A DNA stretch of 63,817 nucleotides, the filler included, from Folioceros fuciformis (taxonomy: Eukaryota): the NCBI GenBank assembly GCA_049999805.1. It is 11 parts of 11 records of this genome, joined end to end, with 100 filler letters (N's around TTAATTAATTAA, not from the genome) between each part and the next. Parts side by side here need not be neighbours in the genome. Positions count along the whole stretch, not along the records: positions 15,564 to 21,459 come from JBNGIO010004924.1; 10 more parts are not named here. One strand, 5' to 3'. Below the pieces are notes generated by a model, which was not told where the DNA came from, ran no database searches, and worked only from the letters and a program-made list of their open reading frames with translations. Positions 9,621-59,202 of this stretch are shown one piece after another; position 1 is the stretch's first letter, and every line of letters begins with the position of its first letter. The translations under genes were made by a program, and so were the position numbers.

Positions 9621-12600
9621 ACATAGAATGGAGTCATAAAACAAGCACAACTTGCAGCTAATAAGGGGCAAGGTTCGGATTTCACCACTTCAGAAGTAAT
9701 TGGGGCTCTCATAGGGGAAGAAGCCACACGTGGCCAGGCTTGCACATCAAATGCTACAGCCCAAGGTTGAGCTCTCTTTGTGGTACGAGGCAGAGGGAGA
9801 GGACGAGGACGTGGATGAGGCCATCCTCCTTACAGCAATAGGCCATCTTCATCTTTTTCAGCACCAAGGAGAAAAGGAGCTTACCATTTGTGCCAAGTAG
9901 AGGGCCATTACGAGAAAGAGTGACATAGGAAAAAGGTTGGAGAGCCTAGGAGAAGACCACCACCTTCAACAAACATTGTACAACAAAAATCACAAGTACT
10001 CTTAGCAATATTTTTGGTTTCCTCCAAGAATGATACCCATAGTTGGTACATTGATAGTGGTGCTTCAGCTCATATTTGTCACACAAGATCCTTCTTTTCT
10101 GCTTACCACCCTTGTGAACTAGGTAGTTTCGTATTGCTAGGTGATGATAGTGGCCTACATGTACAAGGTAGAGGCACTATGTTGTTGTCCTGTGAGGGAG
10201 GCAAAATTTTGAAGTTAGAGGATGTTTACCATGTCCCACAAATGTCAAAGAATTTAGTTTCAGTTCGTAGACTTACAACATCAAATGAGTACAATGTTCA
10301 CTTTGTTGGAGGCACCTGCATAATCCAAGACATAGTCAGTCCTCCTAGTGTGTCATGTCTCTCTACTGGTTGTTCTTTTAATGATCTATATAGGTTAGAT
10401 TTGTCTCCAACACCAGTTACCAACATTGCCAATTTAACTCAGACTAAGCAATCTATGCTCTGGCATCATAGACTAGCACCTGTCAATTCACATAAATTAG
10501 TAACTCTCAACCAAAGCAACTTGTATTCAGAATCCCTACCTCAGTTTTCTCCACTGTCATTCTGTGAATCATGTGTTTATGCCAAGAGTCGTGTAGCTCC
10601 TTATCCTGTTGGTCCTGCTGTACAAGCAACCTGTTCGTTAAAACTGGTTCACACTGACTTTTGTGGTCCTATACCAGTAGCCTCATTCAATCAGTCCTTG
10701 AATTTTTTGCCCATTGTGGATGATGCCACTAGAATGACTCACATATTTTCTATGGCATAAATCAGAAGCTATGGACAGGTTTCTTGAGTACATCAACATG
10801 GCTAAACGCCAACTTAATGTCAAGCTCAAAGCCATGCGCACATATGGTGGAGGGGAGTTTGTAGCTGGTGCCTTTGCACATTTGTGCAACTCTCAAGGCA
10901 TACTCATGTAGAGAAGTGTTCCATATTCACAAGCCTAGAATGGTGTGGCTGAACACTGTCATCAATGGCTTATTGAAGCTGTTCGGGCCATGCGGAACAA
11001 TTCTAGGCTGTCTCAGCAATATTGGGCAGAAGCTATTTCAACAACAACCTACATTAAGAACCGACTTCCGACATCTATTGTTATTGGTGTTACTCCTTAT
11101 GAGGGTTGCACTGGCCGCAAACCCAACCTATTGCATCCACGAATTTTTGGGGCACTTGCATATGCACACATATCCAAACAAACTTTGTCAGAAGCTTGAT
11201 GACAAGGCCAACAAGATGCTGTTTGTGGGATATACTGAAGGAATCAAGGGATACAAGCTGGTGAATCCACAAACTCATAGGGTTACGTATTCTAAAAGTG
11301 TGGTTATTGACGAGCAATCTCTAATGATCAGTCGGAGAGGGAGAGAGATGGAGAATCACCCTGCAGCGTCTGAACTAGCAGATCCAGGCAAGGCTGTACT
11401 CCCTCTAGTTTTTGACCACCCTACAGATGTGAGTGGGAGCGATGATGACCTGCAGCTGTCTGAGTGGGAGTTTGAGGATTCTGGTAGCTCACAACCTGCA
11501 CATACTTCACAAGAGTCATCGCCCGTTAAGGTACCTTTTCCACACGCATAGCCTAAACCTTCTTTAGCTTCCCAAACCACATAGCCAACAGCCCCTATTC
11601 TGCCAACACCTCAACGTCTACTATCGGCCCATGTACCTGTAGCACTCCCTCCCACACATATGCCGCGGTCTGATTCGAATGATCTAGCCAATACATTGGG
11701 TAACCAAGCACCTGCAGCGCCTGTTGCAGTCACTCCACAAGGACGCGCAAACCCCCAACTTGGTTAGACTCTTATCACTTGGAAGGTACGCACATGGCAC
11801 CAAGGGAGGGACGTGCCTCCTCATGTGCTGCACCTGGGCGCGCATCTAATCATGCACCCTCCTCCTCACACACAGAATCTGTGCCCCAAGCCACATCTGC
11901 AGAGCCCGCTTTAGCTCTTGTTCCTACACCCTTTGTTTCACCTGCACCCATTTTAAATAAAAATAATAACTTTTCACTAATTGCCCCTTTACTTAATTCA
12001 GAAAATGAACCTATTATCGATGTTAATGTTTTAACTTTTGCACATGCCTCTTTAGTTCAAGCTTACATAGCAGCCATAGATCTCATTGAGCCTGCTACAC
12101 ATGAAGAGGCTCTGTCTAGACTTGACAAGGTGAAGCGAGAGACAACCATTTTATCTGAATATAACAGTTTAATAGAAAATAATAATTGGGAATTAGTTAA
12201 GCTTCCTTATGGTAGAAAGCCTATACAATGCAAGTGGGTGTTTCACATTAAATTGAAAACAAATGGTAGTGTAGAACGCTATAAGGCACGTCTGTGTACA
12301 AAGAGGTATAGCCAAGTTCCAGGTGTTGATTATCATGAAACATTTTCTCTTGTAGTTAAATTGCGGACTATCAGATACTTGTTAGCCTTAGCAGTTGAGT
12401 TAGATTTAGATTTACACCAAATAGACGTTACAACTGCATTCCTTTATGGTAAATTAAAGAAGGTTATTTATATGGGACAACCAGAGAGGTTCATTGATCC
12501 TAAGGCAAAGGACTTAGTTTGTTGACACTTAAAATGCATTTATGGACTCAAACAATCTCCTTTGAAGTGGTATGCTTATATACTAATAGCCAGGAGTTAT

Positions 12601-13139: not shown

Positions 13140-15463
13140 TGTAAGTGATCCGAATAGGAAACCTATTACTTGAGGGTTTATGCACACTACACGCTCATTT
13201 GCGACTCACACCACGATTTGCACCCGGCTACACAACACGTGTTGGGAGAAGGGGAGCATAGGCTTCTGCACGGGGCTGGGCAGATTGGGAGCAACGTCCA
13301 CTCCTGTGAACTACCACCTGGGTTACCTCCTGCCTGCTTAATCCTCAGTTTTCATAGACGATCGCAACCGAAGAGCGCGAGGCCCAATGGAAGTGGTGAC
13401 CAAGCTCTTTGCTCAGAAACCAAGGTCCATGGCCGAAGGTTGGCAGCAGCCGTTGGGCGGACAGAAGGGGATGGACTAATGGAGTGACAGTCCAAGACCT
13501 GTCACCAGCAGCTCTTCATCCAAGAGGCATCAACCAACAGACATACCTCTTCACGTAGTACCCTGCATAGATTAAGGACGCAAATGAACGCTCAATATTG
13601 TAACTATCCCGACACTCAATGAAAACACATATCCATCTTCAATTTAATATGGTATCAGAGCCATGCCGTGATGAAAAGCCTACCGTGATGAAAGGCCTAC
13701 CGTGATGAAAAGCCTACCGTGATGCTTTCAAAGGCCTACCATGTGACACTGGTGCGCTTGAGGTTTCTGGTGGTTAAAAGCCATGGCTCAGAACAGGGGA
13801 ATACGCGCAACCAACAGCGCGGTGAAGCCTGAGACTTACAACAAATCCTGACATCATGTCAGGAGCTGGTGGAGTAGCCGGTGGAGGGACCGTGACAGGA
13901 GCAAGTGGAGGAGCCGCTCAACCTAACCCTGTATACCTCACCAGCTTCCGCATCGAAATCAAAGAAAAAGATAGATTCACTGGTACCGATTACGATGTGT
14001 GGTCTACGAGAATGAGAGGGCACTTGGAAGATGCCGATTTGTGGACAATAGTCGACGGATCGCTCCCTTGCCCTAATTCCGCAGGTCCAGATCTTGATCA
14101 CTGGAACAAATCAGACAGGAAAGCCAGAAACCTCTTAATTGCAGGACTGGATAAGGACATGGTGCATCATACCTTTGGTGCACCTACGTCCCACAACGTC
14201 TGGGAGCGCTTTCGCCAGATGTATGAAGCAACTGATCCACAGCACGTAGCCCTAAACTCTCTCAGAGCCTGAGGCGGCCATAGCCCTCCTCATGACACTA
14301 CCACAAAGCTGGCGTACCTTCACAGCCACACAAAACGGCCTTATCAAACAATCACAACTCGCGAAGAAATTAAAACTTGGAGACGAGATGACCCTCTCAG
14401 AGGTCATAGCGGCTGTCATAGAGGAAGACTCTGCCAGGGGATCCTCAAGAAGCGCTGCCCCAGGACATGCCTTGTTCATCTCAGGGCCAAACAGGCAAAG
14501 ACAACCAAGAAATAGAAACTGGCTAAGCAGGAAGGGAGGAGAGAGTTCGTCTTCTTCAGGCCCTGCCAATCCCTGTCGAAAAGGGAGCTGCAACTGGTGT
14601 AGAAAACTAGGGCACTATGAGCGAGAGTGCCGAAGTAAACAAGCGGGCGAACCAAGAAAGCCTGGTCCCCAAAGTGCTAACGTTGTGCAGCGAGTGCCAA
14701 CAATCCTCATCACTGCTCTCACACCCGGCAGTGACAGTTGCTCCTCATGGTACTTAGACAGCGGAGCTTCCGCTCACATATGTAAGGAACGCAACTGCTT
14801 CTCCACCTACAAACCACTGCAGGAGGGAGGGCTGATTTATGTTGCAGACAACCGGACTGCAAATGTTTGTGGCACTGGCACGGTTACCCTAACGTGCAAG
14901 ACTGGTGGCACTATAACCCTGACAGACGCGCTTCACGTACCTAAGGTAGCAAAGAACCTTGTCTCAGTGAGCAGCCTGACAGACGATAAGAAACATGAGG
15001 TACACTTCAAGGCCCAGAAGTGTGAGATTTCCTTGTATGAAAATCCTCTTGCGGTTATTTGCCACGGAGAGAAGGAGGATCAGCTCTACACTCTTGAAGC
15101 GACTGCTACCCTTGGATCAACCCTCTTGGCTCAGACTTCAAATAAATCAGAAGTGACAAAGCTATGGCATCTACGCTTGGGACATCCCAATCTGAAGCGT
15201 ATGAAGGAGATGCAGGCAGGTCAGCTATATGCAGAGCCTCTACCTGAGTTCAATGACTCGCTCTTCTGTGAGGGCTGTCTGCTCGGTAAAAGTAAAGAGA
15301 CACCATACCCTCGTGCCTCCACTCACCGTGCAACTAAGCTACTTCAGCTGGTACACATCGATCTCTGCGGGCCTATGTCAACTCACTCGTTTGGAGGAGC
15401 ATCTTACTTTATGCCCGTGGTCGATGACAAATCCCGTATGGTTCACACCTATTTTCTGCGTCT
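13140..15463 (+). mobile_element. Copia B: probable 5' LTR (~13140-13647), PBS, gag-pol to integrase; cut by gap
   Basis: PBS TGGTATCAGAGCCA at 13650-13663; gag from 13856 with deletion/frameshift near 14250; CNWCRKLGHYEREC, WYLDSGAS, LWHLRLGH, VHIDLCGP. LTR start is approximate. Confidence 0.88.
13666..13740 (+). repeat. 17-bp tandem repeat directly after the PBS
   Basis: CCGTGATGAAA(A/G)GCCTA at 13666, 13683 and 13700, partial at 13717. Confidence 0.9.
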
Positions 15464-16149
15464 NNNNNNNNNNNNNNNNNNNNNNNNNNNNNNNNNNNNN
15501 NNNNNNNTTAATTAATTAANNNNNNNNNNNNNNNNNNNNNNNNNNNNNNNNNNNNNNNNNNNNAACATAGCAAAGTCTAATAAGCTATATATATATATTA
15601 ATCATAAACTTAATCATTCTTACCACTAATTAGTACAAACTCAATAAGCTGGATTAGCACTAATTAATCTCAACATTAATCATGCTTAACACGAAAATCC
15701 ATCGAGTAGTTGGGTATAGCATGGTGTAAGTTGTTAAGTACCAAGTCCTATGACGAAAATCCATCCTTAGTGGACTTAAAAAAAAACATTTGTCTCCTTC
15801 TACACAATATGAGATATATGTCTCTTCATTTATCTTAGCCACCTAATCATGTCTTAACCCTAATTATCAAACTCAATAAGTTACTTACTTCTAAATTGTC
15901 AAATTCAATAAGCTACATCCTTAATGGTAGCCATAAGAAAGGACTCAAGCTCCAACGGGTAGGTGGGAGGTGCTAATCAAAGTAGGTGGGAGGTGCTAAT
16001 CAAATTGGAGAAGAAGACAATAGATCGAATTTCAACTGCAATTATTGTAGCAGCAATAGACACATTGTGAGAAATTGTTTCAAGAAACACACTGATGAGA
16101 GAACTCAAGGACCTTGCAATTGTGCTAAACAAATTCTTTATGTGTAGAC

Positions 16150-16460: not shown

Positions 16461-17067
16461 GGTCAGATATAAAATAGTAGCCCTTGAGTTAGTTCAATGC
16501 AATGGTTAACATTGCAAGAAGGTAGCAACTCATGAGGCAGCCCTTGAACTACTACATCCTTGAATTCTTGAAGCAAACTGTGAATGACTTAGTTGGGTTC
16601 ACTTCGTAACATACCTTGTGTCTTCCATCTGGGAACCACAGCCATAATCTTTACTCTACGTTAATGAGTATCAACAAGAAATTCCTCTTCACTAGCCATG
16701 TGTATTGCCAAGGTTGTTTGTCCTCAAACAAATGAGATCCTAGGGATTGTGTTGTTCTTTAGGGTCCCCAACTCACATGGTTCTCCTCGTCTATGAGATT
16801 TGAGGCTCTCAAGCCTCAAGCCACTCCATTCCCAAAATAATATCACATCCTTGTAGAAGTGGTGTAACTGTACATATAATTTCATCCGGAAATGACCCTA
16901 GGGATAGAAAAACATTCTAAATATTTATGAATGTTCTCCATATGAACACAACCTAGTATTGAGGATGACATATTCACTAATTGCATCTCTTATGTTGATA
17001 CCTAGTATTGAGGATGACATATTTACTAATTGGATCTCTTATGTTGATAGTGACAATCATAATTGCA

Positions 17068-17453
17068 ATTGAAATTAGTTCTACTTGATCAAAAATAAGT
17101 CCATCCACAAAGAAACACCATTGGGAAGAGTGTCAGCACATCTACAATCGAAAACTAGTTCTACTTTATAAAAAACAAGTCCATCCACAAAGAAACACTA
17201 TTAGGAAGAGTGTCACTACATCTACATTGGAAAACTAGTTCTACTAGATAAAAAACAAGTCCATCCACAAAGAAACACCATTGGGAAAAGTGTCAGCACA
17301 TCTACAATTGAAATCTAGTTTTACTTTATAAAAAACAAGTCCATCCACAAAGAAACACTATTAGGAAGAGTGTCACTACATCTGCATTCGAAAACTAGTT
17401 CTACTAGATAAAAAAACAAGTCCATCTACAAAGAAACACAATTGAGAAGAGTA
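17068..17453. repeat. 80-bp tandem repeat, ~5 copies
   Basis: CCATC(C/T)ACAAAGAAACAC at 17101, 17181, 17261, 17341 and 17422. Confidence 0.93.
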
Positions 17454-17879
17454 TAATGATGCTCCTTAAATCACACTCCTTAGAGAAAAAGAAGACCTCC
17501 TCCTTAGCCAATGATGACATTGCCAATGATGTCATGTCTATATGTGTAGCAATGCATTGGCAAGTGTTTCAAGTATTCGTATGTTTCGAGTTGATATCAT
17601 TTGAGCTCTACATGCCTAGGGTTCACTCTACGAGGCAATGAGCCTTGTCCGCTCCTAAAGGGGAAAACAAGCGTAACAAATGAACGTGCATAACCAGTAC
17701 AATAGGGCAAGAGAAAAATAATCTCCTTAATTACTTAAGAAAAACTTAATCACAAGGGCCGTTCGTCTTTTTGTCATTCTTCCCTCTAAAGTTTTCTAAT
17801 TCTTGTACTTTGTTTTCTTTAAAAGAGAACATACCCCGCACAAAAACGACGCATTCTCCACCGCCGTCGGCAGGACGAG

Positions 17880-20061
17880 ATGGAAATGTGCCGTTATTTT
17901 GGAATGCCTGGTGGTTGTGTTCGTGGGGAGAGATGCTTTTTCGCTCACGGAGAGGAAGAGCTGGGGAGAGCAAGGCTCGTGACGGGAGTTTCAAAACAGA
18001 ATCAAGCGACTAACAAGGTGAAGCATTCTTCCCATTGCATCATAGCAATACACGCCGGGTCCCTTCGATAGCTACTTACTGTGTGTATATTTAACACGTC
18101 GACGCATGGTGCCCTGTTCGGGAGACCACAGCGAGTGACAGAGGATCTGAGCAAGAAAGTTTTCGTGGGTGGCCTCCCTCCCTCTGTCGAATCTGGTGAG
18201 AACGTTTCGCCGTGGACACATTCAGAACGACAGAAACTTGTATCACTTCGTCTCTAATAGGGAATCCATCACGTTCCTTCGGCAGAAGTTCTTCGGGAAT
18301 TGTTCGAGGAGAATTTCGGGCCTGTGATGGATGCCATAGTCATCGGCAGTCACTCTGGTGATCACATTCAGTCACGAGGCTTTGGTTTTGTAACATTCAA
18401 ACACGAAGGATCCGTTACCGCTGCGGTCCAGGCTCACTACGTCAGCATAATTGGGAAAAAGGTTCTTCTCACAGTTCGATTTGTCTGCTGTTTGTTGCCT
18501 ATCCCACAGAATGCAAGTTGATCCATAAGGTGCGGTGTTCAGGTCGAAATCAAGAGCGCGGTTGCTAGATCGGTGGTGCCAGGCGTTGATGTGGGACCAG
18601 GAAGCGATTTATCAAGTCGAGTTGAGGACAACAGTTCGCTCAACCTCTCGTTGGGATCCGTTGGTGGCGAGTCATTAGATGAATCCGAAGCGTCTTGGAT
18701 AAAGGTGACGGGATGCCAGAAACATCGGGCGCGAGTCCTACCTTTGCGGTCTGTTTTGGGCGTGGATTCGAATGCTGCAAAGTGTACTTCACCAAGTTCA
18801 TTCCAGACCACCGTGATGCCAGCGATTCAAGGATCACCTGCAGCTTGGGTTACAAAATTCAAGCAATGGCTTCCCGGATTTTTGATCGAGGTATCAAGCC
18901 GGTTAAAAGAAGGGGAATGGTATCCCTTGTCTTCACTGAAGGGCGACTTCAGAGCAACATGTGGCCTGGAGCTTGATCACGTTGGACTTGGCTATCACAA
19001 GCTGAGTGATTTTATTCGTTCCATTTCCGAGCTCTGCAGAATGAAAATAGTTCCAGTTGGCAGAGGTCCAGCTACACACATGGTGTTGCTTCCCTTATCT
19101 TCGAGGGCTCTCCCAGCTGCACATTCAAAAGGCTATGCAAGTGGTCAGCTTGTTTGCAGCTCTGTTGTCGACGCAGGTCGATCGTATGCCGCAGCAGCCT
19201 GCAGCACTCAGAAGAATCTTGCATCAATGCAAGTTGTTCCTTCCGTCGTCACATCATATCGGAGCTATCCAGGGGTTGTCAGTTCAGCCGATTCGAAAAG
19301 CAGTCTGATTGGTGATGCAGGAGAATCATTTTTTGAGGCTTCGTCGATTGTGAATTCCCGCGATACTGTTGGCGACCAAGGATCATTCCGGCACCATCAT
19401 CTTGCAAACCACATGGAGGTCGAAGATCACGAATGTTTTGCAGAACTTCTGGCTCTGCTGCGGCCTCCAGAAAGCCAGCCGATGGAAGAAAGATCTAGAA
19501 ACCTCCTCCGAGATAGACAAGCAAACCAGGCCTCTCACGAAACAGACATTGCAGACCAATCGGGCATACCTGTAACAAAAACTCTGGCTACCCATGCAGC
19601 ATCGCTTGTGTTTGATCATTCTCTTCCCAGGATGCATGCAAAAGACAATTTCCCTTGGAGCGCGTGTACAGAGTCGCCAACAAGCAATCTTGAGCAGGTG
19701 TGCGAACAGTCGTTCATTTGAAGCTCGGTGTGAGTTGAACAATCCGCAATTGCGTCTAACCCGATAGCGCGTCTCGCAGGAGTCACCACAGAGTGTTCTA
19801 CCTTCATCGTCGACTGAGTGCGGTCTAAAGCTTTCTTCAACATTGGCAACTTTCGCAGTGGGGGAAGTGGGGGGTGAAATTCAGTTCCTGGCAGGACTGT
19901 GTCCTATGTGTGAGCAGCGAAAAGCTATCTGGGTAGCCGTGCCATGTGGTCATCGTATGGTCTGTCCGATCTGCAAGAATAAGTTTGGATTGTCCAGGCA
20001 CAACGATACACAGTGCTCCATTTGCTGGAGGCAAGTACAGCGGTGGATTGCTCTCCATTAG
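17880..20061 (+). CDS. CCCH zinc finger-RRM-OST-HTH/LOTUS-RING(C3HC4) protein, 604 aa; exons 17880-18017, 18132-18195, 18286-18461, 18543-19697, 19780-20061
   Basis: C-x8-C-x5-C-x3-H (CRYFGMPGGCVRGERCFFAH); RNP2 KVFVGGLP and RNP1 RGFGFVTF; LOTUS-like PLSSLKGDFRATCGLELDHVGLGYHKLSDFIRSI; RING CPMC...PCGHRMVCPIC...CSIC. Four GT-AG introns keep one frame (1815 nt). Confidence 0.88.
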
Positions 20062-21559
20062 GAAGGCCCGTGTGGTTGCTTGGAGATCTACTCTAGGACA
20101 TTAGACTCGACAACTACTTGACTCCCATGTACTTAATCTTGAGAGTTGTCACATCATTATCAAACAGACCCTTTTGCTGTTTTAAACTCAATCCGAGGGG
20201 AGAGCCACGAAAAAAAGAAGGGGCTATGAAAACGGCTCTCTTGCCATCGAAAGAGGGAGACTACGGAAACCAATCACTCACATGTCATAATACCATGCAT
20301 TACATTTGTTAAGAGAAAAAATAAATATTAGAATAAAAAACAAAAATAAAAAGATACAATGTCAATACGATGTGTGAAGTACAACTTAACTCCTAACGGG
20401 CGGGACGACTCAATTTAAGTTGTTATGATAATACAAGAGGACTCGCCATTGCGTATTTGACAACCCTCTTCAACGAAGCCCATAAGGCAATTGATGTAGA
20501 TAAGTATTCTCAAACATCACTAATTCACGCCACAAGAGCAAGAAACCAACACACAACTCGCAATTTGTGACATTAAACAAGGCTTCACTTAGCTTTACCT
20601 TCTACTAACATTTGGAGATCACGTTCTCCAGGTGCTACTATTTACTCAAAATACATAAGCCCCAAAAGAGTGCCCTTAATACTATGACAGCTTTCTTAGC
20701 TAAGATCTCCACATCTATCTCTCAATACAAAGTCGGTTGCGTCCCAGAGGGGGCTGAAGAGCTCAAGAAGGTCGGTCACGTGTTTACGGGGAGTTGAATT
20801 TTGTCGAGGAGGGAGGAGTAGTGGCTACGGAATGGGATCCCGTTGCGGATCAGTTGGTATTAGGGTCAAGCATTACTTTGGCTTTTATGGTGGGGATCAT
20901 CAGTCCAAGTGGGGGTTCTCTGCGTGTACCTTCGGTTGCCCAGCTCAAGCGCAGCATAGAGCTGTCAAAACGTAAGCATGTGGTTGTAGACAAGAAGACC
21001 AGACTACGTTAGAACCCTTGGATGGGTCAATGGATAAACAGATCCGAAACTGTTGGAATGAGCCTAAGGGAGGTAGTTTTTGCAATGAAACCTGGAGGAA
21101 GTTGATACCAAGCTTGGGAGGGCAAATGTAAAGTTGGAGAATGGTGAACTGGATGAAGGTCAAGGGTATTCCTGAATCTAGCGAGTCTTTGCACTCAGCA
21201 AACTGGTCCAACTTGTGCTTGTACACCTTGTGCAGCCCAGTGATGCTTGCCTGCCGAACATGTATCTTACAAGAGTTCACTTTTAGCATAGCTGACCACC
21301 AAAGTGTGCAGCCAAGGAAGGCAGAGTTTGTTACATGGAGAGGTGCAGCATGTAGGTTTGCAGCCGTTGATGTGTAGCGAGCTAGCGGGAAATACCCTCC
21401 CTGGATAGTATCTGGAGTCTCAAAGCAAGCGCCACAGCTATTCGACAATGGTAGGGGAANNNNNNNNNNNNNNNNNNNNNNNNNNNNNNNNNNNNNNNNN
21501 NNNTTAATTAATTAANNNNNNNNNNNNNNNNNNNNNNNNNNNNNNNNNNNNNNNNNNNN

Positions 21560-23257
21560 GGTAATCCTTCTCTTCCTCCGACCACGAGATATGCGCAAAC
21601 GGAAATCTTTCATCCTCATCTGCCTGTCCTTCCGTGTCCTCGGCTGAAGTGTACCCCTCCGTCTCAGAGGGTGTCTCACCTGCGTACATATCCTTACTCC
21701 AAGACAGACACATTCTTCCTTCCTTAGCCTTTGGATCCCAGTCCACTGGTTTAAAGCCTACTTCCTTCCGCCCCCATTTAAACGTGCACCTGGCACCATC
21801 CATCCAGGTTCTGCCGATCAGCACCTCATAACCCGGGGCTTTCTGCCTGATCACGACATAGTCCATGAGGTAGGGGATAGTTCCAATATGGGTTAATACC
21901 CCAAGAATTTCTCCGACCGGTGCCATTTTTGACATATCCGCCAATCGCAAGACCTTGGCAGTGTGCTCGATTTCCAAACCCAATTTCCGGGCTGTGTCTT
22001 CCGTCATAATATTTACTCCAAACCCTGTGTCTAAAGGTACTTTCTTAATTACACATCCCGCGATTTCGATTTGCAGCTCGACAGGTCCTTGATCTGTCAT
22101 GGTTACCAAATTCACAGCGTGTGTCCTTGGTCGCACCCTTGGCAGACTTGGTTTCCTCCTTGGTTGTGCCATCTTCAATGCTCGCCTCAACTGCTGCCGA
22201 TATCGCGGTGTATCTTGGAGCAATTGTCCGAAAGTCACCATGAATTTCTGATCCATGATGGCTTCCGCCAAATCCAGCACTCGTGATCTCCCCTTCTCTA
22301 CCCCTGCCGTGGGTCGAGAGGTCGCATCCTTTGGCCCGTCCTGTTCCCTTGCTGGCGTGGTCTTGGCTGGCCCCCCTTTTGTTGCCGCATCCTCCAGCGA
22401 TTGATTCAACTCCTCTTGGATCATATCAACCACCTTCTGACGCACATCCGGAGGAAATCCTAATTTCCTCATTTCATCCAGCCGCAAATCCTTTCCTCCT
22501 TCTTCTGCCTTCGGGCCCGCCCCCTCCCCGGGTCGTCGTTCTTCCTCCACGCGCGGTGCTGACTCCTCGGCCTGGTCGCCTGTAAATTCCTCCTTACCCG
22601 AATTTTGAGGGGGTTCCTGTGTCCTTGACAATTCCTGTTCCTCCTTGCTAATCGGAGTGGCGGGGTCTTCTGAACTGGAGGATGTAGTTTGGTCCTTTCC
22701 TCCATGCTCCCTCTGCCCCGACTGCTTGTTCTTTGCTGCTTTTGCTCGTCCCCGAGTTCGGATGGCCATCACAGGGGCTTCCTCGTAATATTGTCCGTCC
22801 AAGCTACCCAATCCTTCCAACTTCCTCAACATGCTTCCTTCCGCATCTTCCCATACAGCCATTAATGCGTCCGTCACCGGTATCGCAGGAGGAGCACTTG
22901 GTCCAGGGGCCTGAATCACCGCTGCTTGGGTGGGGGCAATCCTCACGTGTTTCCTTGGTGCAGCACATAAAACACTTCCAGCCACATGGCCCATTTGCTT
23001 GCAGTCAGTGCACAGCCTCTCATAGTCCCCATTTCCTTGGCGCGTCGCCGAGGGACAGCTGTTCGCAAAGTGCCCTATGACTCGACAATTATAGCACTGG
23101 ATGGTTTTCAGCTGCGTCGGATTTCTGGGGGTCTGTCCTCGTATGGGTGCATTGTTACATAAATGTGGAGGGTAGACCGTCTTGGGGTATCCCATCATGG
23201 GCATCGTTTCCTGAATTTGATAGGCGTCCTCCAAGTAAGCCTCCTCCTCCTCTTCTT
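21560..23257 (-). mobile_element. Ty3/gypsy gag (C-terminal part) and aspartic protease; interrupted upstream by family X, cut downstream by gap
   Basis: Open frame with CYNCRVIGHFANSC, a second knuckle-like CTDCKQMGH, and LDTGFGVNIM...VLIGRTWM protease. Confidence 0.85.
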
Positions 23258-24135
23258 TGTAGGGTTATTAAAGCCCAATGTGCTTAGGCTAATGTGTTTA
23301 GTCTAAGATTAGTGTCTAGTTAATGTGCTTAGACTAATGTGTTTAGTCTAAGATTAGTGTCTAGTTAAGTATAATTAGTTTAGATTAGCTTAAGCTAATC
23401 TGTAGGAAGCTTCTTGCGCAGCTTCCTGTGAGCTTCTTGTGAAGCTTCCTAGGGAGCTCTTCTAGAGGGTATAAATACCCCCTTGAGCTCCCTTGCCAAC
23501 TACTCTCATTGTGACTTCTTTTTCTCCTCTCCTCTCTGCCTCCTCTTCTCCTCTCCTCCACCATGCTCCTCTAGTGATCCTACAAGTGGTATCAGAGTAG
23601 GTTGTGGAGCAGGTTGTGGAGCAAGACCATGAAGATGGCCATCTAAGAGGGGGAGGGGCGCCACGCAGGCGCCATCTCGACGCCATGTAGGCGCCACCTA
23701 GTCGCCACGCGGGCGCCACTTGGGCACCACCTCGGCGCTACCCAGGTGCCACTTGGGCGCCACGCGGGCTCCACTGGGCGCCACCTGGGTGCCATCAGGG
23801 CGCCACTTGGACGCCACCTAGGCGCCACCGGGCACCACGTGGGCGCCCGTGACGCGCGAAACGAGCGTGCCAGTGAAGCGAGGACCCGATTGACGAGCGC
23901 CGGAAAGTGAACAAATCGCAGACGCCGGGAGCGAGAGTGTGGGCGCCGTATTGACCCCGGCTGAGGAAGTAAGGATCTCGATCAGACATAGGAGGACATT
24001 CCTGTTATGAGCGACAGAGGCCCAAGTTGTGGACATACGATTCGGAAGAAGTTATGAGGGTAACCTGTAGAATCTACATTTCATTTCGACCAATTTCAAA
24101 CTAGCTTTTTGGTTGATTTGGATCGATTTTGAAGC

Positions 24136-29618: not shown

Positions 29619-30920
29619 TTGCTACTAGACAATACATGTAGAGAGAATAAGAACCAGCTATTATTTGCGTATTTGAATATGTGAGTGAAAATGGGAAAAT
29701 TTGAGAAGGTGAAGGTAGGCTTGCTTCTGATAGACCATACTCATCACCAGATTGATCAAATGTTTTCCTGTTTTTCAAAGAGCTTATGGCACAAAGAGGT
29801 GCATACATTGGTTGCCTTGACGGAGATATTGGTCACGGTGTACACTCCTTTACCAAAGGTGATAGTACTAACACAAATACTTGATTTCAGGTCTTTCGTT
29901 TGGCCGGTCTGTAGAGGTGATGAGAGACAAACGTATGCTGCGGTGGTAAGGAAGTTGAACAATTTGTCATTCCAACACCAATTCAAGATAACACATGAGA
30001 ACGTAATAGACAAAGGGCTTACAACCATCATCCGCAGTAAGCAATATTCAACAACTTGCCATTGGGAGCCGGAAGGAGGTTTGGAGTTTTTGAGACATGT
30101 ACCTATGGCTGAAATTGGGGCAAGTCCACTACTGGCTTTGCGTGCGCGAGATAAAAAGGGGTTGGACGGTGGCTTGTCGCCCACCCAGGGTTTAGCACAT
30201 GTGAAGGCAGGGCTTATGGGGTTGAAGCCTTACATAACAACTGGAGACAATGAGTGGTGGGAGAGCTTCTGGAAGGACCAAGAAGAGATTGCAGTCATTG
30301 TTGAGAACAAGATCAGTGTCATGCTTCAAGCGCCGTGGAGATGGTACTCCATGGTGGCGATCAAAGGATCAGTAGAACCCATTATTATGCTAGACGTAAG
30401 TTTGCTGGATGATGCTTTATTATGTGACCTTCCTTGTCGCGATATGTACCTTGGAGGATATCAAAGCCGCCAAAGACAACGAGAAGAAATGGACAAGTTG
30501 AATGGAGATGTTTTAGAAATACGAAAGGACATGTATATTGCGACACCTTGCTTGACTGACATGCATAACAAAACATTTTGGATTGCAAGGGTTATTGAAG
30601 TGAGGCTTTAGGTGGAGAGGCCATCATTGTTAGGGCACTAGTACTTGACAGAGCACATTGATGCATTCGAGAGGAAGTATGTCGAGGAATACATCATGCG
30701 AGGAAGGGTGCCTGACGAGGGAGGGCGTTCCAGGCAGCATGAGTAGAAATTTGTTTCCCCTAAGAACGTACAAGAAATTTATTTGAATGATACTATTATC
30801 TTGTACTATGGGTTCAACCTAACTGCCCGCAAGCACTTATATGCAGTGGACAAGAAGGCCATTAGAGACAATCTTAGTGCATTGTGTGGGTGCATAGAGG
30901 CACAAAGTGAGACAGGTTGA
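29619..30920 (+). pseudogene. 5'-truncated DUF7869-like (putative transposase-related) ORF
   Basis: LLLDNTCRENKNQLLFAYL...GKFEKVKVGLLLIDHTHHQIDQMFS fits the LDN-x2-ENKN / GHTH-x2-IDQ-x-FS signature I recall for this family; in-frame stop at 29682-29684; ORF 29685-30611. Confidence 0.65.
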
Positions 30921-35743: not shown

Positions 35744-38700
35744 CTACAAGAGACGGCGCTTCTTGGCTTGTTGTAGAGAAATTTGAGCTGATTCGTTTTC
35801 GAGCATCTGTTTCAACGTTCTGTCGCGTAACTCATCCAAAGTTTCACCCTCTTTAGCTCGCTCTAGCACCTGCAGGAATCCCAGGACAGGCCTGAGCGTC
35901 TTGCAGTTCAAGAATCGGAGCATGAGATGCCCGGAGAGAAGTGCTCACCAGATGGCGCCCGTAGAGATGTGTACTTCGTAGAGCATCAAAAGCATTCTGC
36001 GCTTCCTGTCGTGTGAGGAACTCCACAAATGCAAAGCCGCGATGCCTCCCGTGGACACCCTTGGGCAGCCGCAAACTTTTGATCTGAAAGCACCCAAGAT
36101 CAGGAGTGAGTGAGAAAGGTGGGTAGACCCTCTCTAGTTCCAGAAGGAAAAAGAGGACAAGGACTGTGTCCACATCACCTGACCAAAAGGGCTCACAAGT
36201 TGCTGCAAGTCCTTCTTTGTAGCCTCGAAGGCGACATTTCTAATTATGATCTTTGTGGAGCTCCCTTTGTTGTCTGGTACTGGGGCCTTCCGTTCCGCTG
36301 AAATTGCCTGGCCCTTGGGATTCGACGGACGGCTGAGCTGAACCACAAGCGCATGCCCATCTAGAACTGTGCCCTAAATGAAAGATCGTAAGAAGTGAGC
36401 TCAGACTTGCCACACTGTAACAGAACAGAAGGGAGGGGAGACCTGATAATAGATCTGCAGAAACAAGAGGCTAATCACAGCACCGCAGAACCCACCTGTA
36501 GCGATGTACACATTTGTTTTGCTGTGTTGACACTGTCAAACTCTACAAATCCAAAGCCCATGGACAGCGGTTTCCCGCTCTTTCCAGGCTTTGTACTTAT
36601 CTGCGGCACAGTCATCCCAACGTAACCACTTGTCATCCCTCAAGTGACAAGTCAACTTCTGCACTAGTGTCAAAACATTTTCAACTGCAGAACACGTGTA
36701 CACACCTTCACACTTCTTACTGCACCATTTTTCTTCATATGCTGGTGAACATGGTTTTTCAGGGAAGCTTCAGAAGTGCTGAAATTTAGATTCTTCACGA
36801 ACAACGACTTGGCCTGTGTAGCAGAGAGTCCTGGTTAGACCTCCTCCACATGATCACTAGCCCCAAAGGGTTTCAAACTCTTTGGATGTGACACACACCT
36901 GGGAAGAATCCAGGTCAGCTTCTAGGTCCATTTCAGATAGTTGCTCATCAGCAACATGTTTCACGTGACTTGCTACTACAGCACTTTCTTGCGATTGCTG
37001 ATCAAGCCCCTTCGATAATATACCTTCAGGTGCCCATTCCAAATACAGAGGGACGTGCCTGCACACAAAAGTCCTACCGTTGATCCAGAAGATGTGCCAA
37101 ATTTGTCTCATCCACGCATTGAAAACCTGGACACAAAAGGAATCAAAAGACAGATTCCAAGACTTACTTGAACCGCTTGTAGGCTAAGCCCTTGAAAGCC
37201 TTGCGTGCATCTGCCGCTTCTAGAAACTCGACCTGCATACAAGTTGTCAGAGAACCTGCAACAGGCAGAGAACTAATTTCAATGGCAGTGTGCGATGCTG
37301 TGTAGTACCAGAGCAAGAGTCTTGGTTGGAGGCAGCACTACCCTGCCCAAGTTCCCAAAGCTACTGAACATCTTCACCAGGTCACCGTGCAAAACCATAA
37401 AGGGAAGATTCTTCACTAGAATCACGTGACCACTGCGCTTAACATCTTTGTCTCCAGTGGAGGCAAGCTTTTCCAGAAGCTCAACATTAACGCCATCTCT
37501 GCTTAAAGCACGCTTTGTCTCAGCGATGATATGTGTTTCCCCGAGGGCCAACCTCACTGCAAGATCATCTGCCTCTGGATCCAGGAATTCACCTTTTGAT
37601 AGGCCATATTGTTGTGCCACACTTTCAGCAACCTAAAATCAAGATGCCATTTGCCAACATGAAGGTCAAACTGATGAGTTGATCTCAACAGGATGTATTC
37701 CTGGACAACACAAAATGGACAAAGAACAATTCGAGGACGTACAGTGTCTGGATTCATGAAAAACGCATTCCACGATGCAGTATTTCCACCAGCTTCTGTT
37801 GCCTTTCTCTCCTCTTGCTTCTTTTGACTGAATTTGGAATTCTTTGTTCCTTCAGATACGATCCTGCAGGTAGAACGATCATAATGATGTCCATAAGCTC
37901 CTTCGCTGAGGTTTTATGCAATCAAAAGACATGTACATTTCTTGCTTCAATCTGCTGTACACAGCTGCTAGATGATAAAAGCACAAACGAGTTTTCCAAC
38001 ATCGGAATGCTCTTTATTAAATCAAGAGAGCGCTTACTGTTCTTTCCCCGGAATGGGCCCCTGTCGCTTGGCAGGTAAAATGTGAATAAGCCTCCCTTGG
38101 AAGCTACTCTTATCCAATTCCTCCATAGCTCTGAAGAACAAACAAAATACAGGTTGGCCACAGTGTAAGTGGTTAGAAAGTTCAGTATGTAGGAGGGAGA
38201 GACTCTGAAGTACATTGAACCAGGAAGGTGTACCCTAGAGCATATGTTAGCACCTGACTGCTGCTTCTGGAAGCATGAACAGGATAAAAGCAAGCCCTTT
38301 CGATAAATTGGAATCTCTGTCAAGCACTAGGTGCACTTCCATAAGCTCTCCATACTTGCCAAACAGCTCTCTCAGATCTTCCTCACTGCAAGTCCAGGAA
38401 AGAACGTTAGCTCCAACACCTAGTGTTTGGAACAAATAAGGAGAAAACCGCTCCACATTCAACTGCTGAACGTTTCAACATCGTCAATAATACAACCTTG
38501 CTGTGTACGGTAGGTTTCGGACAAAAAGACGCCCAGTTTCAGACACACTGTCTTGGCCGTCAAAAACATGCAGCCGTTCCTCCTGGCCACTAACATTTGC
38601 TTCAGCCAGAAATGAATCCTGTAAAGCACTGCCGGATGTTTCCGCAGGCCTATCATCCCTATCAAATGAGCCCTGAGCCTCATCCTCATTCTGATCGTCA

Positions 38701-39622
38701 CCCTCACCTTCACGCTCACCCTCCACCAGAACCTGATCCTCCTCCTCATCATCACTCCAGTTCACTTTCACCCGGCTCTTCAGATACTCCGAATCAGTTA
38801 CGTTATCATGCCTGATAAGCTCATCTACTTCGTTTGGCTCTGCACCCTCCGACTTAGCCCATTCGTCTGTAATCGGATTGATCTCAAGACTAGACCTTCC
38901 TGCTCCTTTGTCGTGTCCATTTCCTTCCAGTCGAACGTTATCACGAGAAAATTGCTCTTTCCTTTTCACCTTGCTTATTGAAGATGTTGGCAACCCATCT
39001 TCAGCAGCGCTAGCCTTTCCTTTGACACCATCTCCAACTTTTTTTCTGTTGACTTCCAGCGTCTGCTGTGCTCCGGTGTCGTTGGTCCATAACTTTGTCT
39101 TACTCCGTGGTTGCATAGCCTCCAAAAATTCAGCAAACTGAGGATCGCCCTCCTCTTTACTGCTCTGCACCTGAAACTTAGCTTCAACATTTTTCTGGCC
39201 CTTCGACGATGAGGAAGGAGGCTTAGCCACGTGCTGCGTTTTATCGAAAGCAGAACTCCCTTGAGAATGACGACTCCAAGGTCGTGGTAAATTTGGATCG
39301 CCAATCGGCTGTGCAACCTGCACAACACGTAGCTTTAACGGGCCCAGCCAAGCATCATTTGATATCCCGCAACCCAAACACGACCACGAACTTCATTTAC
39401 CTCGCACCAAAGACGACTGCTATCAAAGAAGCTTCTGTGGAAATATTTCACGGCGGCCAGGGCATCCTCCTCTGACCGAAAGCCCACAAACCCAAATTGC
39501 CGAGAAATCCCGTCTCTGGAAATCACTCTAGCATCGGTGACCTCCCCGCGGGCAGCAAAATGTGCTTTGAGCCTCTCGTCGTCCACGTACTGTGGCAAAT
39601 TCTTCACGCAAATTCGAGACAT
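35744..39622 (-). CDS. MRD1: Multiple RNA-binding domain protein MRD1/RBM19 (40S biogenesis), multi-exon
   Basis: Five RRMs (MSRICVKNLP, GRLFVRNLPY, VILVKNLPF, SLFVKNLNF, KIIIRNVAF) plus LAVRLALGETHII and PLYLEWAP; first exon 39401-39622, last exon 35744-35869. Confidence 0.93.
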
Positions 39623-39907
39623 CTTCGCTTCTAGTGCATGATCGACAGAACGGTTCGGACAGAGCTTAAACCATAAACCCTAAATACATTTTTGTTATGG
39701 TAAATGGTAAACATTCTGCGTAGGTACTAAATACATACACATATACTGTAGTAGTTGATCATCTGGAATAAGCATGTTGGTTTTCAATAAAGTCTCCGTT
39801 CCAAGACGTGGATTGCAGGTCGTTGTGAGGCGTTTCCCTTCGGAAACAGGGCTCGGATCGAGCGAACCGTGGTCCGTCCAGGAGTTCAGGTGCGGCGACG
39901 TGAACAG
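39623..39907. promoter_or_regulatory. Putative bidirectional promoter with telo-box (AAACCCTAA, 39675-39683)
   Basis: 285 bp between the divergent ATGs of two ribosome-biogenesis genes. Confidence 0.65.
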
Positions 39908-47176: not shown

Positions 47177-50100
47177 CTAGACGGTTTCTCTACTTGCCTC
47201 GTCAACAACTCCTCCTTCCTGTGTGACTGTACCATTGCCAGGAGTAGGGGCCCAGGCGGTGCCGTCAGGTACAGATTTCCGCTTCATAACGGTTTCATAG
47301 TCCAGGAAGTCAGGCTGGTGGGTTGAAGATAACAGTCGTGCCCACATCCTGTCACTGACGTTCACCCGATTTTGAGATTGGGTAATCCTCTACACATATG
47401 AACAAAGCCAAATTTTGATCAGTAAAATTTATGTTGCTGGTTCACACTTAAGAAGATCATTCCAACTAGCACAGAACAAATTTGATACAAGGAGTTCAGA
47501 AGAACAAATTTCATTCAAGGGTTTCAGGAGCCTACGTTGATTGGAATGTAGGTATGTCGCCCATTGACTGGGCCAACAGTGAATCCAGAATATCCAGCCA
47601 TAGCCCCATGGATAGCGCTATGGGCCAGCAGAGTGCAATACACATTGTCGGACGCATTACTTGGTATAGCTCGAATCATGTACGTGGGGTCTGTTTCCGA
47701 ATAGCACACCAGCAAGTCAAGGTTCATTTCACATGGTCCACCCCACACGAACCTTGGCATTGATAATCGGTGGAGACGTTTCCAGTAGGAGTGTAGATGA
47801 AAACACTCACCAATATACTTCAGGTTTAGGTCCCTGTTTCTCCTTTTCTTGAAGTCTGCCTGAAAATAGAATATAGGTACATTGTAACTGTAAGACTTGA
47901 GCCCCTGCAATGCAGAACCAACCAGATACTTGCTGACTTCGAAATTACCTTAAGTGCTTGAGATAACCATAGACCAACATCAAGTAGCAGCCGATTGCCA
48001 GATGCATCCATATTGCTGGAACCATTTTGATTTTCTAACTTCAACAACTCTTGACCAGCACCTTCGGCTACAACAATCACCATGTGTCCGTTTTCCAACA
48101 AACGTTTCTCCACAAACTCGTAAAGACCTCCAGGTCCCTCTAAGTAGAACGGATTTTCCGGTATCAAACAGCAGTCCTGCATAAATGACATGTCAAGGAG
48201 GTCACAAAGAACCCGTCTAAGAAGCATGGGTGCCGTTGCAGGGCTAGGCGGCCAAGGATGGCAGACTTACAACATCACGGCTCGCTAGTGTTGCATGCAT
48301 TGCGATATACCCTGCAAAACCAAAAGTAAGAAGCATACTGAGCACCCCCAGTTCGAGAAAGCTTATGATCAAACATAGGTGACAAAAGGGGTGCACTTGC
48401 AAATCCTACCACTGTATCGACCCATAAGCTTCACCAGGCCAATGGAGTTGTGCGTGCTCTCGGCTTCAACATGTGCTGCATTGATTGCCCGTTGAGCTTC
48501 TTCTACAGCTGTATCGAATCCAAATGATTTATCTATCACCTGCAGAGGGGGGCGGAGGATGATCGGTCAGTCTGCTAAGATAATTATTGTGCAAATACAA
48601 GGCCACCAGAGAGGTACAGAGATTGACGTACAGCAATGTCATTGTCGATAGTCTTGGGGATGCCAGCAACAACGACCTTCAGACCACGCCGTTCGATCTC
48701 CTGAGACACAAATGTTGCAACAGTGAAGGGGCTTGAGAGTCCAAACTAACACCTAGCCAAAGCTCGTGCTCCAAAATTTCTTGTGCAAACTTAACAGCAG
48801 CTTGTCCTACATGTGTATTGTATCATGCCATACCCTGTGAATGATTTCAGCACCTCGTTGTGTACCGTCCCCACCAATAATATAAACCTACAAAGTCAGT
48901 AGATATTTTAAGAGAAAATCACACCATTTACAAGTTGGCGGAGAGGTCAGACGATGAATCGCACAATCACAAAGACATACTTGATTGATTCCTCTGTCCT
49001 GAATACTGTCCACAATCTTGTTCACATCGTGCCCACCTCTAGAAGTTCCAAGCACTGTGCCTCCACGTTTGTGGATGTCGTTCACAAGCTTTGGATTCAG
49101 AGTTATTGTATTCCGAGAATAGAAGCCACTGTATCCCCCCTGAGGTGCAGACACAGGATCTAAAATAAGTAGACTGTGCATAATTCTCTTGGTAAGTCTT
49201 AGTGCATGCTGTCCTGCTTTCAAAAAAAATTATTAAAAGTAGAATAGATGACGCACATCTATACCGATGATCTCCCGGACACCATATTGAGTCCACAGCC
49301 CGCAGACTATCTCACGGATGACAGTGTTCAGTCCAGGACATAGGCCCCCGCATGTCACGATACACGCTCGAACTTCAACATCTTTAAAATATATCTGCAC
49401 ATAAAAGGACACGAGCTAAGTGCCTCTATTCACGTCCACTGAAAGACTTCTTGAAGCCAAAGTTTTCCCAGACGACATCCCAGTGGCAATGGCTGGTAAG
49501 TGATCACCTTCTGCCTCGGTCCAGCCCGACGAAAGTGAACACCATCGCCAGGAGTTTTAAGCTTCACAACGATCTGGAAAAAGTAGAACATGTCAGACCA
49601 ATCACACTCCAACACACAGTGTCGTGGTGTTACAAAGTAGCAGAGGCACCTACATCTTTCGCAACGACGTCATCCTCTTCCACGAAATACTGTCTGCAAA
49701 TCAAAAACCGAAACATGAGACCCAAAAAGTGGCAATCAGGAAGGCAAATTGCCGGCGTCCGCATGCACAGTTGCAAGGGGAACAATCGCTAAATGCCTTA
49801 CTTGACAGCCGCGTAGGCAGGATTGTGCTTGAGGGGATTCGGGTATGTCTGCTCACAAAGGCCAAGCCGTTAAAACGCGCAAGCCACCACCAGACACCAC
49901 AATGACACGAGGAGAAGCCAACAAACCTACCTCTAAATCCGTGCCCAGCCAATCCATGAGGTGGGGAACATCCTCGAGGCGAGCCCCGCATGCACCCTCC
50001 TGAGTCTTGCATTCGCTCACAAACACCTTCGGCTTCTTCCCCGACACGTCACCGGCTCCCGGAAGTGGTCCACACACACGAGAAGCCACAGGGCTCCCAA

Positions 50101-50275
50101 GGAGCTGCTTCCTCTGCAAACAGGACTCCAGAGCAGTACGACCAGCTGCGCCTTCAGCCTTGGGCACGTATCTCATTCGGTTAACCTTCACTCGAGCTGG
50201 CTCTGCAGAAGCTCTGCAAATCCCCTGCCCCACCCCCCGCAGCGCCACCCCCGGGCTGTTCAACGTAGCCTTCAT
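47177..50275 (-). CDS. PFK: ATP-dependent 6-phosphofructokinase (plant PFK group A-like), multi-exon, possible plastid transit peptide
   Basis: [49 protein letters not shown] (ATP-type GGDG), [48 protein letters not shown]; first in-frame ATG at 50275. Confidence 0.95.
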
Positions 50276-58842: not shown

Positions 58843-59202
58843 NNNNNNNNNNNNNNNNNNNNNNNNNNNNNNNNNNNNNNNNNNNNTTAATTAATTAANN
58901 NNNNNNNNNNNNNNNNNNNNNNNNNNNNNNNNNNNNNNNNNNGCAAGCAACAGCAATTGTCAAGGCTAGTTCTTTTTTATTGGTTGGCAGTTAGGGTTTC
59001 TAGCCTTTAATTAATTTAATTTAATTTAGGTTAGCTTTTCAATTGGAATGGGTTTTTTGCTTACTTCACATGCCTTTTCATGTTGTTGTAGTAAAAGGCA
59101 TGTTCACAGCTGTACCTTTTTCTTTTGTGGCTGCACATGTCTACCCTAGATCAACTTGTTGCCCAATTTCCTGCATTTAACTTACTTGGTGGGTCAGCAA
59201 AC

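What the first reader, a model, noticed from the sequence alone, without database searches (positions are those of the whole stretch)
17880..20061. Candidate RNA-binding E3 ligase with CCCH + RRM + LOTUS + C-terminal RING
Seen: five exons splice cleanly into 604 aa; the RING exon is separate in the ORF track and joins only through the 82-bp intron 19698-19779. Known: LOTUS/OST-HTH domains (Oskar, TDRD5/7, MARF1) act in RNA granules and transposon silencing; MEX3, Roquin and Unkempt couple RNA binding to RING ubiquitination; plant AtC3H46-type proteins have CCCH/OST-HTH/RRM in a different order and without RING. Inference: an uncharacterised plant RNA-regulatory ubiquitin ligase, possibly linked to silencing. 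I cannot confirm that the architecture is undescribed.
Basis: partly seen in the sequence, partly recalled or inferred. Interest (0 to 1): 0.75.

Follow-up and report, generated by a model that had tools for sequence, protein, structure and literature searches.

The report
Ankyrin-less MEL2/PAM1 meiotic RNA regulator
A real, spliced plant gene with four domains (zinc finger, RRM, LOTUS, RING) is the ankyrin-less form of the already described MEL2/PAM1 family, so it likely controls messenger RNAs around meiosis in spore-forming cells; its ubiquitin-ligase activity is only predicted.

Summary
Five exons give 604 aa, Pfam finds CCCH, RRM, OST-HTH/LOTUS and C3HC4 RING at or above their cut-offs, and transcript-like contigs splice all four introns, including 19698-19779. 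The novelty claim does not hold. The gene is a MEL2-like protein. Rice MEL2 is in the cluster of one of its homologue hits, MEL2's best hits in this genome are this locus, and its RRM groups with MEL2. [quoted passage not shown] Rice MEL2 and maize PAM1 are characterised meiotic regulators. The same four-domain form occurs in Physcomitrium, Sphagnum and Calypogeia. The LOTUS is of the minimal type, which argues against Vasa-like helicase binding. The RING keeps all eight zinc ligands but lacks the usual linchpin arginine, and I found no ligase assay for the family in the papers searched. It is one apparently single-copy gene among LTR retrotransposons, in a genome I infer (untested) to be a hornwort. 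New member of a known family; low interest.

The parts
17880..18017 (+). Exon 1 (aa 1-46), starting at the ATG just before the CCCH finger
   Evidence: in-frame stop upstream at 17820-17822; X1 contig begins at 17866
17889..17948 (+). C3H1 (CCCH) zinc finger, C-x8-C-x5-C-x3-H, aa 4-23; the 'ZINC' domain of MEL2-like proteins
   Evidence: Pfam zf-CCCH_4 24.6 bits; near-identical finger in Calypogeia, Chara, Closterium, Physcomitrium and Vitis relatives
18132..18195 (+). Exon 2 (aa 47-68), with RNP2 of the RRM (VFVGGL, aa 56-61)
18286..18461 (+). Exon 3 (aa 68-126), RRM core with RNP1 (aa 98-105); DAZAP1/Musashi/hnRNP A-type RRM
   Evidence: Pfam RRM_1; family profile's best PDB hits are hnRNP A2/B1, DAZAP1 and hnRNP A1
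18543..19697 (+). Exon 4 (aa 127-511): end of RRM, Ser-rich linker, LOTUS, long poorly conserved spacer (likely disordered)
18843..19094 (+). LOTUS/OST-HTH domain (about aa 227-310), minimal type: no conserved helix after the beta-hairpin
   Evidence: Pfam OST-HTH 40.6 bits; AlphaFold2 model, mean pLDDT 82; best folds TDRD7 Z 9.9, TDRD5 Z 9.8, Tejas Z 8.8; conservation stops at the hairpin's end
19698..19779 (+). 82-nt intron 4 that brings the RING exon into frame
   Evidence: spliced in contigs of X1, X2 and X9
19780..20061 (+). Exon 5 (aa 512-604 + stop)
19900..20058 (+). C-terminal C3HC4 RING (C552, C555, C567, H569, C573, C576, C590, C593) with a short hydrophobic tail; Trp at the linchpin position
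   Evidence: Pfam zf-C3HC4_3 36.1 bits; closest solved sequences MEX3C RING E 1.4e-4, RNF123, XIAP; family alignment; positions
20062..20207 (+). Transcribed 3' untranslated part (minimum extent)
   Evidence: X1 contig runs to 20207

Best explanation
The gene encodes an ankyrin-less MEL2/PAM1-family RNA-binding protein (CCCH-RRM-LOTUS-RING) that likely regulates the fate of meiotic mRNAs in spore mother cells of the sporophyte. SHOWN here: the spliced gene, its four domains, its place in the MEL2-like family, and no ankyrin part found. INFERRED from rice MEL2, maize PAM1 and MARF1: the CCCH finger and DAZAP1-like RRM would select target transcripts. The minimal LOTUS would add RNA affinity and recruit CCR4-NOT. 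The spacer and RING would help gather these RNPs into cytoplasmic granules that hold or release meiotic mRNAs around meiotic entry. Lacking ANK, it would not dock on the ASY1 chromosome axis as PAM1 does, so it should act mainly in the cytoplasm, like MEL2 granules. MORE SPECULATIVE: the RING acts as a weak, linchpin-independent E3 on itself or on granule partners, to clear the granules once meiosis starts.
For: Family: 57 hits at 211-674 aa and 67 at 675-2000 aa to the LOTUS region; all that are named are streptophyte proteins, and 61 of the 67 long ones carry ankyrin repeats. The cluster of hit P0132 holds UniRef 'MEL2 protein' F1LJ10 = P0149. MEL2 searched in this genome hits this locus first (LOTUS 65%, E 1.3e-29; RRM 49%). 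The RRM tree separates the 22 MEL2-like rows, window included, from 14 hnRNP/Musashi rows, SH-aLRT 99. Same four-domain form in P0005 Sphagnum, P0082 Calypogeia and P0085 Physcomitrium. [quoted passage not shown] PMC13187813 (passages and Discussion): PAM1 binds ASY1 through ANK and CCR4-NOT through its LOTUS-containing C-terminal part. PMC7498356 (passages): plant LOTUS domains bind G4 RNA.
Against: No tissue data here: the organ of X1 and X2 is unknown, so sporophyte-specific expression is borrowed from Marchantia and Physcomitrium. The Arabidopsis member is ubiquitously expressed and the family was not found in Fabaceae or Solanaceae, so its role is not fixed. MEL2 (entry timing, cytoplasm) and PAM1 (prophase splicing, chromosome axis) differ from each other. 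PAM1's CCR4-NOT test deleted LOTUS and RING together, according to the figure legend. Arg sits at the linchpin position in 1 of 32 family RINGs, and the window has Trp. Several members have no RING hit (e.g. P0007, P0009, Chara, Nymphaea).
Confidence: 0.7

Rival explanations
1. An RNA-dependent E3 ligase of the MEX3/Roquin/Unkempt kind with a general (non-meiotic) or silencing role.
For: All eight RING ligands are intact. The closest solved RING is MEX3C's, which also lacks Arg at the linchpin (Gln in the alignment). About half of yeast and human RINGs lack the Arg (PMC7667886, passages). The gene lies among Copia and Gypsy-like elements.
Against: All characterised relatives act in meiosis. 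The LOTUS is minimal, and Vasa binding needs the C-terminal extension, which plant LOTUS domains appear to lack (PMC5458760, passages). A position among transposons says nothing about function. The RING is lost in several family members.
Confidence: 0.15
2. The true gene is longer: ankyrin exons lie upstream, beyond the repeats or an assembly gap, and the 604-aa model is the 3' part of a five-domain MEL2-like gene.
For: An AG acceptor-like site lies at 17872-17873, just before the ATG, and the X2 contig starts to match at 17874. Calypogeia has both a 1307-aa ANK form and a 676-aa form starting at the same place. The assembly is in 7240 contigs, with gaps at 15464-15563.
Against: The X1 contig runs unspliced through that site to 17866 with no loose end. 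tblastn with 8 ANK-bearing relatives finds no ANK piece in the window. In G000 the family's N-terminal ANK block has no match better than E 0.049. Whole-protein searches give only 22-40% ANK hits of 70-220 aa on other contigs, whereas land-plant family ANK regions align at 42-46% over about 400 aa. ANK-less forms are normal in mosses and Marchantia.
Confidence: 0.08
3. PAM1-like nuclear splicing regulator on meiotic chromosomes, recruited through a separate partner rather than its own ankyrins.
For: PAM1 controls splicing with CCR4-NOT. Mimura et al. suggest the domains may be shared out among several proteins.
Against: PAM1 needs ANK to bind ASY1. No separate family-type ANK gene was found in G000, though these searches can miss genes with small exons.
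Confidence: 0.07

Closest known systems
Rice MEL2 (Os12g0572800, UniRef F1LJ10; P0149)
   Same: RRM-LOTUS-spacer-C3HC4 RING in the same order; reciprocal best hit in this genome; LOTUS 65% identical, RRM 49-58%.
   Different: MEL2 has N-terminal ankyrin repeats and Pro-rich repeats and has lost the CCCH finger. The window protein has the finger, no ANK and none of those repeats, and is 604 aa against 1160 aa.
Maize PAM1 (Zm00001d030741; P0169 is a 1095-aa maize protein that I take to be PAM1 from its length and domain positions)
   Same: RRM, LOTUS and RING; same family according to PMC13187813 and the trees.
   Different: PAM1 has ANK domains that bind ASY1 and two RINGs; the window protein has one RING and no ANK.
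Bryophyte MEL2-like proteins (Physcomitrium P0085, Sphagnum P0005, Calypogeia P0082, Marchantia Mp5g01760 and Mp8g18320)
   Same: Same ANK-less CCCH-RRM-LOTUS-RING layout in P0085, P0005 and P0082; Calypogeia P0082 aligns over the full length, 41%, E 2e-140; RING at the very C-terminus with a similar tail; moss-like metagenome ORFs start at the same exon-4 boundary.
   Different: Marchantia has at least four copies among the hits, some without a RING hit; this genome shows one. In the tree the window row falls in none of the moss, Marchantia or Calypogeia clades (unresolved).
MARF1 (minimal LOTUS + RRM meiotic mRNA regulator of animals)
   Same: Minimal LOTUS and RRM; CCR4-NOT recruitment and meiotic role (PMC6168497, seen only as a search listing).
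   Different: MARF1 has tandem LOTUS domains (and an NYN nuclease, per the legend); PMC13187813 calls the likeness convergent.
MEX3C / XIAP-type C-terminal RINGs
   Same: Closest solved RING sequences.
   Different: Only the RING is alike (E 1.4e-4); MEX3 uses KH domains (recalled).

Membership tests
MEL2-like (MEL2/PAM1) family | Consecutive RRM-LOTUS core | tested here: met
   Pfam RRM_1 then OST-HTH; LOTUS fold
MEL2-like (MEL2/PAM1) family | Domains drawn, in order, from the consensus ANK-ZINC-RRM-LOTUS-RING (ANK or RING may be missing in non-seed plants) | tested here: met
   ZINC-RRM-LOTUS-RING present in order; definition
MEL2-like (MEL2/PAM1) family | Groups with MEL2 in phylogeny / reciprocal best hit | tested here: met
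   RRM tree, SH-aLRT 99 against hnRNP/Musashi outgroups (quick method, 84 columns); reciprocal hit. The LOTUS-less ANK-ZINC-RRM sister group named in the paper was not among my rows.
MEL2-like (MEL2/PAM1) family | Sporophyte/premeiotic expression and granule formation | not testable with these tools
   Runs are contigs of unknown tissue
Canonical grass MEL2/PAM1 architecture | N-terminal ankyrin repeats | tested here: not met
   No ANK in the spliced model, the window or as a family-type block in G000; the transcript's 5' end is not mapped exactly
Extended LOTUS (Oskar/TDRD5/TDRD7, Vasa activators) | Conserved C-terminal alpha-5 extension after the beta-hairpin | tested here: not met
   Conservation over 43 sequences ends at the hairpin; no helix and pLDDT under 50 after it. 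Caveat: Oskar's extension is disordered until bound, so the lack of conservation is the stronger argument.
Active RING-HC E3 ligases | Eight cross-brace zinc ligands (C3HC4) | tested here: met
   C552, C555, C567, H569, C573, C576, C590, C593
Active RING-HC E3 ligases | Arg (or other H-bond donor) linchpin after the last ligand | tested here: inconclusive
   Trp594 here; Arg in 1 of 32 family RINGs; but about half of known RINGs lack Arg
Active RING-HC E3 ligases | E2-dependent ubiquitin transfer | not testable with these tools
   needs an assay
   The order here is CCCH-RRM-LOTUS-RING; the named LOTUS homologues are MEL2-like

The most novel reading that the evidence does not exclude
This lineage (probably a hornwort) keeps a single, ankyrin-less MEL2-like gene, the minimal meiotic-entry switch of early land plants. 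Its C-terminal RING is an active, linchpin-independent E3 that ubiquitinates the protein itself or its granule partners and so dissolves the premeiotic RNA granule, the missing 'timer' that Mimura et al. ask for. A single copy in a plant with a continuously growing sporophyte would make the idea that MEL2-like proteins delay meiosis, and so allowed the sporophyte, directly testable by one knockout.
Probability: 0.2. Interest if true: 0.6.

Novelty: new member of a known kind. Interest (0 to 1): 0.25.

Why it matters
As a discovery it matters little: the family, the domain combination and the ANK-less bryophyte form are described, and two members are functionally studied. Its use is as a tool. 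An apparently single-copy, compact member in a non-seed plant is a clean place to test whether MEL2-like proteins time meiosis across land plants, and whether the family's RING is a real ubiquitin ligase; I found no such test in the papers searched. Two small additions came from the homologue set: Closterium has all five domains including the RING, and a liverwort (Calypogeia) has an ANK-bearing form, so the five-domain protein is likely ancestral and ANK was probably lost more than once.

Tried and rejected
RING homodimer prediction (2 copies + Zn): no answer, score 0.07 against a mark of 0.32, alignment not used; no evidence either way. No holder of the stretch is on record as RNA; RNA status rests on the spliced contigs. 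The careful tree of the CCCH-RRM-LOTUS region did not finish, and the quick tree leaves the window row unresolved among non-seed plants and algae, so it names no lineage and no order of ANK losses. Foldseek gave no match at E <= 0.001, though its top 7 rows were all LOTUS domains. The Pfam OST-HTH search of G000 scored only 3 candidates, so its single match is no count of LOTUS genes. A weak tblastn hit at 50057-50179 (E 0.001, one query only) was not reproduced with the window's own protein and was set aside. The other RRM hit in G000 (L010) is an ordinary hnRNP-like protein. No LOTUS-less ANK-ZINC-RRM paralogue turned up among the 120 listed of 126 hits or in G000; this does not prove absence. 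Searches of earlier findings returned nothing. 'MEL2'+'hornwort' found 0 papers. Nonomura 2011 and Mimura 2024 (New Phytol) were not held and are known to me only through citing papers; the latter, and the preprint's figures and supplements that I could not see, may already include this lineage or RING tests.

Full report
Observation. The five exons named by the coordinates join to 604 codons plus stop, with four GT..AG introns of 81-114 nt. Pfam on the separate exons gives zf-CCCH_4 (24.6 bits, at the cut-off), RRM_1 (33.4), OST-HTH (40.6) and zf-C3HC4_3 (36.1). Of four runs laid, X1 gives one contig over 17866-20207 with no mismatch that skips all four introns, X2 (a relative) does the same, X9 shows the RING-exon joint, and X6 keeps the introns. 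The runs are only guessed to be RNA, but X1 covers just 4 of 30 bins of the upstream retrotransposon stretch, as RNA would. Of the 40 differences listed (of 169), those in the domains were 14 silent to 1 replacing, against 10 to 12 in linkers, so the gene is under purifying selection.

What it is. The LOTUS region found 57 proteins of 211-674 aa and 67 of 675-2000 aa. All named ones are from streptophytes: Chara, Closterium, mosses, liverworts, lycophytes, ferns, a conifer and flowering plants. 61 of the 67 long ones carry ankyrin repeats. An exhaustive search of cluster representatives gave 108 hits, mostly the same group at over 50% identity, with only a weak tail (unnamed). The cluster of hit P0132 contains the UniRef entry named 'MEL2 protein' (P0149, Os12g0572800). 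Searched back into this genome, rice MEL2 hits this locus first and second. An RRM tree puts the window row with 21 other MEL2-like rows, apart from 14 hnRNP/Musashi rows, with SH-aLRT 99. The CCCH+RRM part of the Calypogeia relative likewise finds MEL2-like proteins at the top (apart from one unnamed multi-RRM protein) and hnRNP/Musashi proteins further down.

What is in print. Mimura et al. [quoted passage not shown] They report Marchantia, Physcomitrella and Selaginella members lacking ANK or RING, find the bryophyte genes expressed only in the sporophyte, and note that the moss protein resembles ANK-deleted MEL2, which still forms granules. Maize PAM1 is the second characterised member (PMC13187813; passages and Discussion read). 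My scans show the same four-domain form in Sphagnum P0005, Calypogeia P0082 and Physcomitrium P0085. A search for MEL2 with hornwort found no paper; Nonomura 2011 and Mimura 2024 were not held.

Is ANK really missing? An acceptor-like AG lies just before the ATG, and Calypogeia has both an ANK-bearing 1307-aa and an ANK-less 676-aa model, so I tested this. X1 reads through that site unspliced. Eight ANK-bearing relatives find no ANK piece in the window. The family's N-terminal ANK block finds nothing better than E 0.049 in G000. Whole-protein searches return only generic ankyrins of 22-40% identity on other contigs, against 42-46% over about 400 aa between land-plant family members (35% for Closterium). 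The assembly is fragmented and the search is loose, so I leave about 8% for hidden upstream exons. Only one copy of the gene was found.

The domains. The RRM has intact RNP2 and RNP1 and is of the hnRNP A/DAZAP1/Musashi type. The LOTUS model (mean pLDDT 82) is a winged helix ending at the beta-hairpin, and its best structural matches are TDRD7, TDRD5 and Tejas LOTUS domains (Z 9.9, 9.8, 8.8). Conservation over 43 sequences stops at the hairpin. Vasa binding needs a C-terminal extension that plant LOTUS domains appear to lack (PMC5458760, passages), while plant LOTUS domains bind G4 RNA (PMC7498356, passages). It is therefore a minimal LOTUS, and a helicase-activating role is unlikely. The RING has all eight ligands and resembles MEX3C's most among solved structures. 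It has Trp at the linchpin position, and Arg stands there in 1 of 32 family RINGs. That weakens but does not exclude ligase activity, since about half of RINGs lack the Arg (PMC7667886, passages). Several members have lost the RING. PMC10838886 (passages) labels MEL2's RING an E3 domain, and the passages I saw report no assay.

Mechanism (inferred). In spore mother cells the finger and RRM would bind meiotic transcripts, the LOTUS would recruit CCR4-NOT, and the spacer and RING would promote cytoplasmic granules that store or release these mRNAs at meiotic entry. Without ANK it would not be tied to the ASY1 axis. Whether the RING ubiquitinates anything is open. I put 0.7 on this reading (about 0.95 on family membership alone), 0.15 on a general or silencing E3, 0.08 on a longer ANK-bearing gene and 0.07 on a PAM1-like nuclear role.

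Setting. G000 is 87 Mb. Short introns, small size and a tree position outside the moss, Marchantia and Calypogeia clades (unresolved) suggest a hornwort; this is inference from recalled genome traits and was not tested. The gene is an island between Copia-type and Gypsy-like remains, with an 80-bp tandem array about 430 bp upstream.

Verdict. A real, expressed gene, correctly read by the first stage, but a new member of a known and partly characterised family. Interest 0.25.

Noticed in passing
window 17072-17452: Tandem array of an 80-bp unit (4.8 copies, 86% matches; alternating as a 160-bp unit at 93%) ending about 430 bp upstream of the ATG, plus a 49-bp doublet at 16951-17049; it may lie in the promoter.
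   Followed up: no
window about 38300-39660, - strand: A second RRM gene; its first exon has Pfam RRM_1 (52.9 bits) and it looks like an RBM19/MRD1-type multi-RRM protein (resemblance recalled, not tested; translation).
   Followed up: partly
whole window, e.g. 10865-12522, 14256-15461, 21561-23264 (-), 52310-53434, 59095-60003: The window is mostly LTR retrotransposon remains (Copia gag, RVT_2, GAG-pre-integrase; a Gypsy-like gag with a zinc knuckle) with ten paired N gaps, unusual for a compact 87-Mb genome; it may be a repeat-rich, accessory or sex-linked region.
   Followed up: partly
window 29685-30608 (+): 308-aa open frame with DUF7869 (60.8 bits), possibly transposon-derived.
   Followed up: no
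proteins P0189 and P0082 (Calypogeia fissa): A liverwort has a 1307-aa five-domain MEL2-like protein with ANK beside an almost identical ANK-less 676-aa model on another contig: either ANK loss is not shared by all bryophytes, or the short one is a truncated annotation.
   Followed up: partly
protein P0091 (Closterium): A zygnematophyte alga has all five domains, RING included, whereas the preprint's only alga (Chara) lacked the RING; the full architecture likely predates land plants.
   Followed up: partly
protein P0022 (Marchantia Mp5g01760): Its RING has lost the His ligand, and two other Marchantia copies (P0007, P0009) have no RING hit: the RING decays in duplicates.
   Followed up: partly
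protein P0004 (Sphagnum balticum): RRM-LOTUS fused to a cation-efflux transporter, probably a gene-model merge.
   Followed up: no
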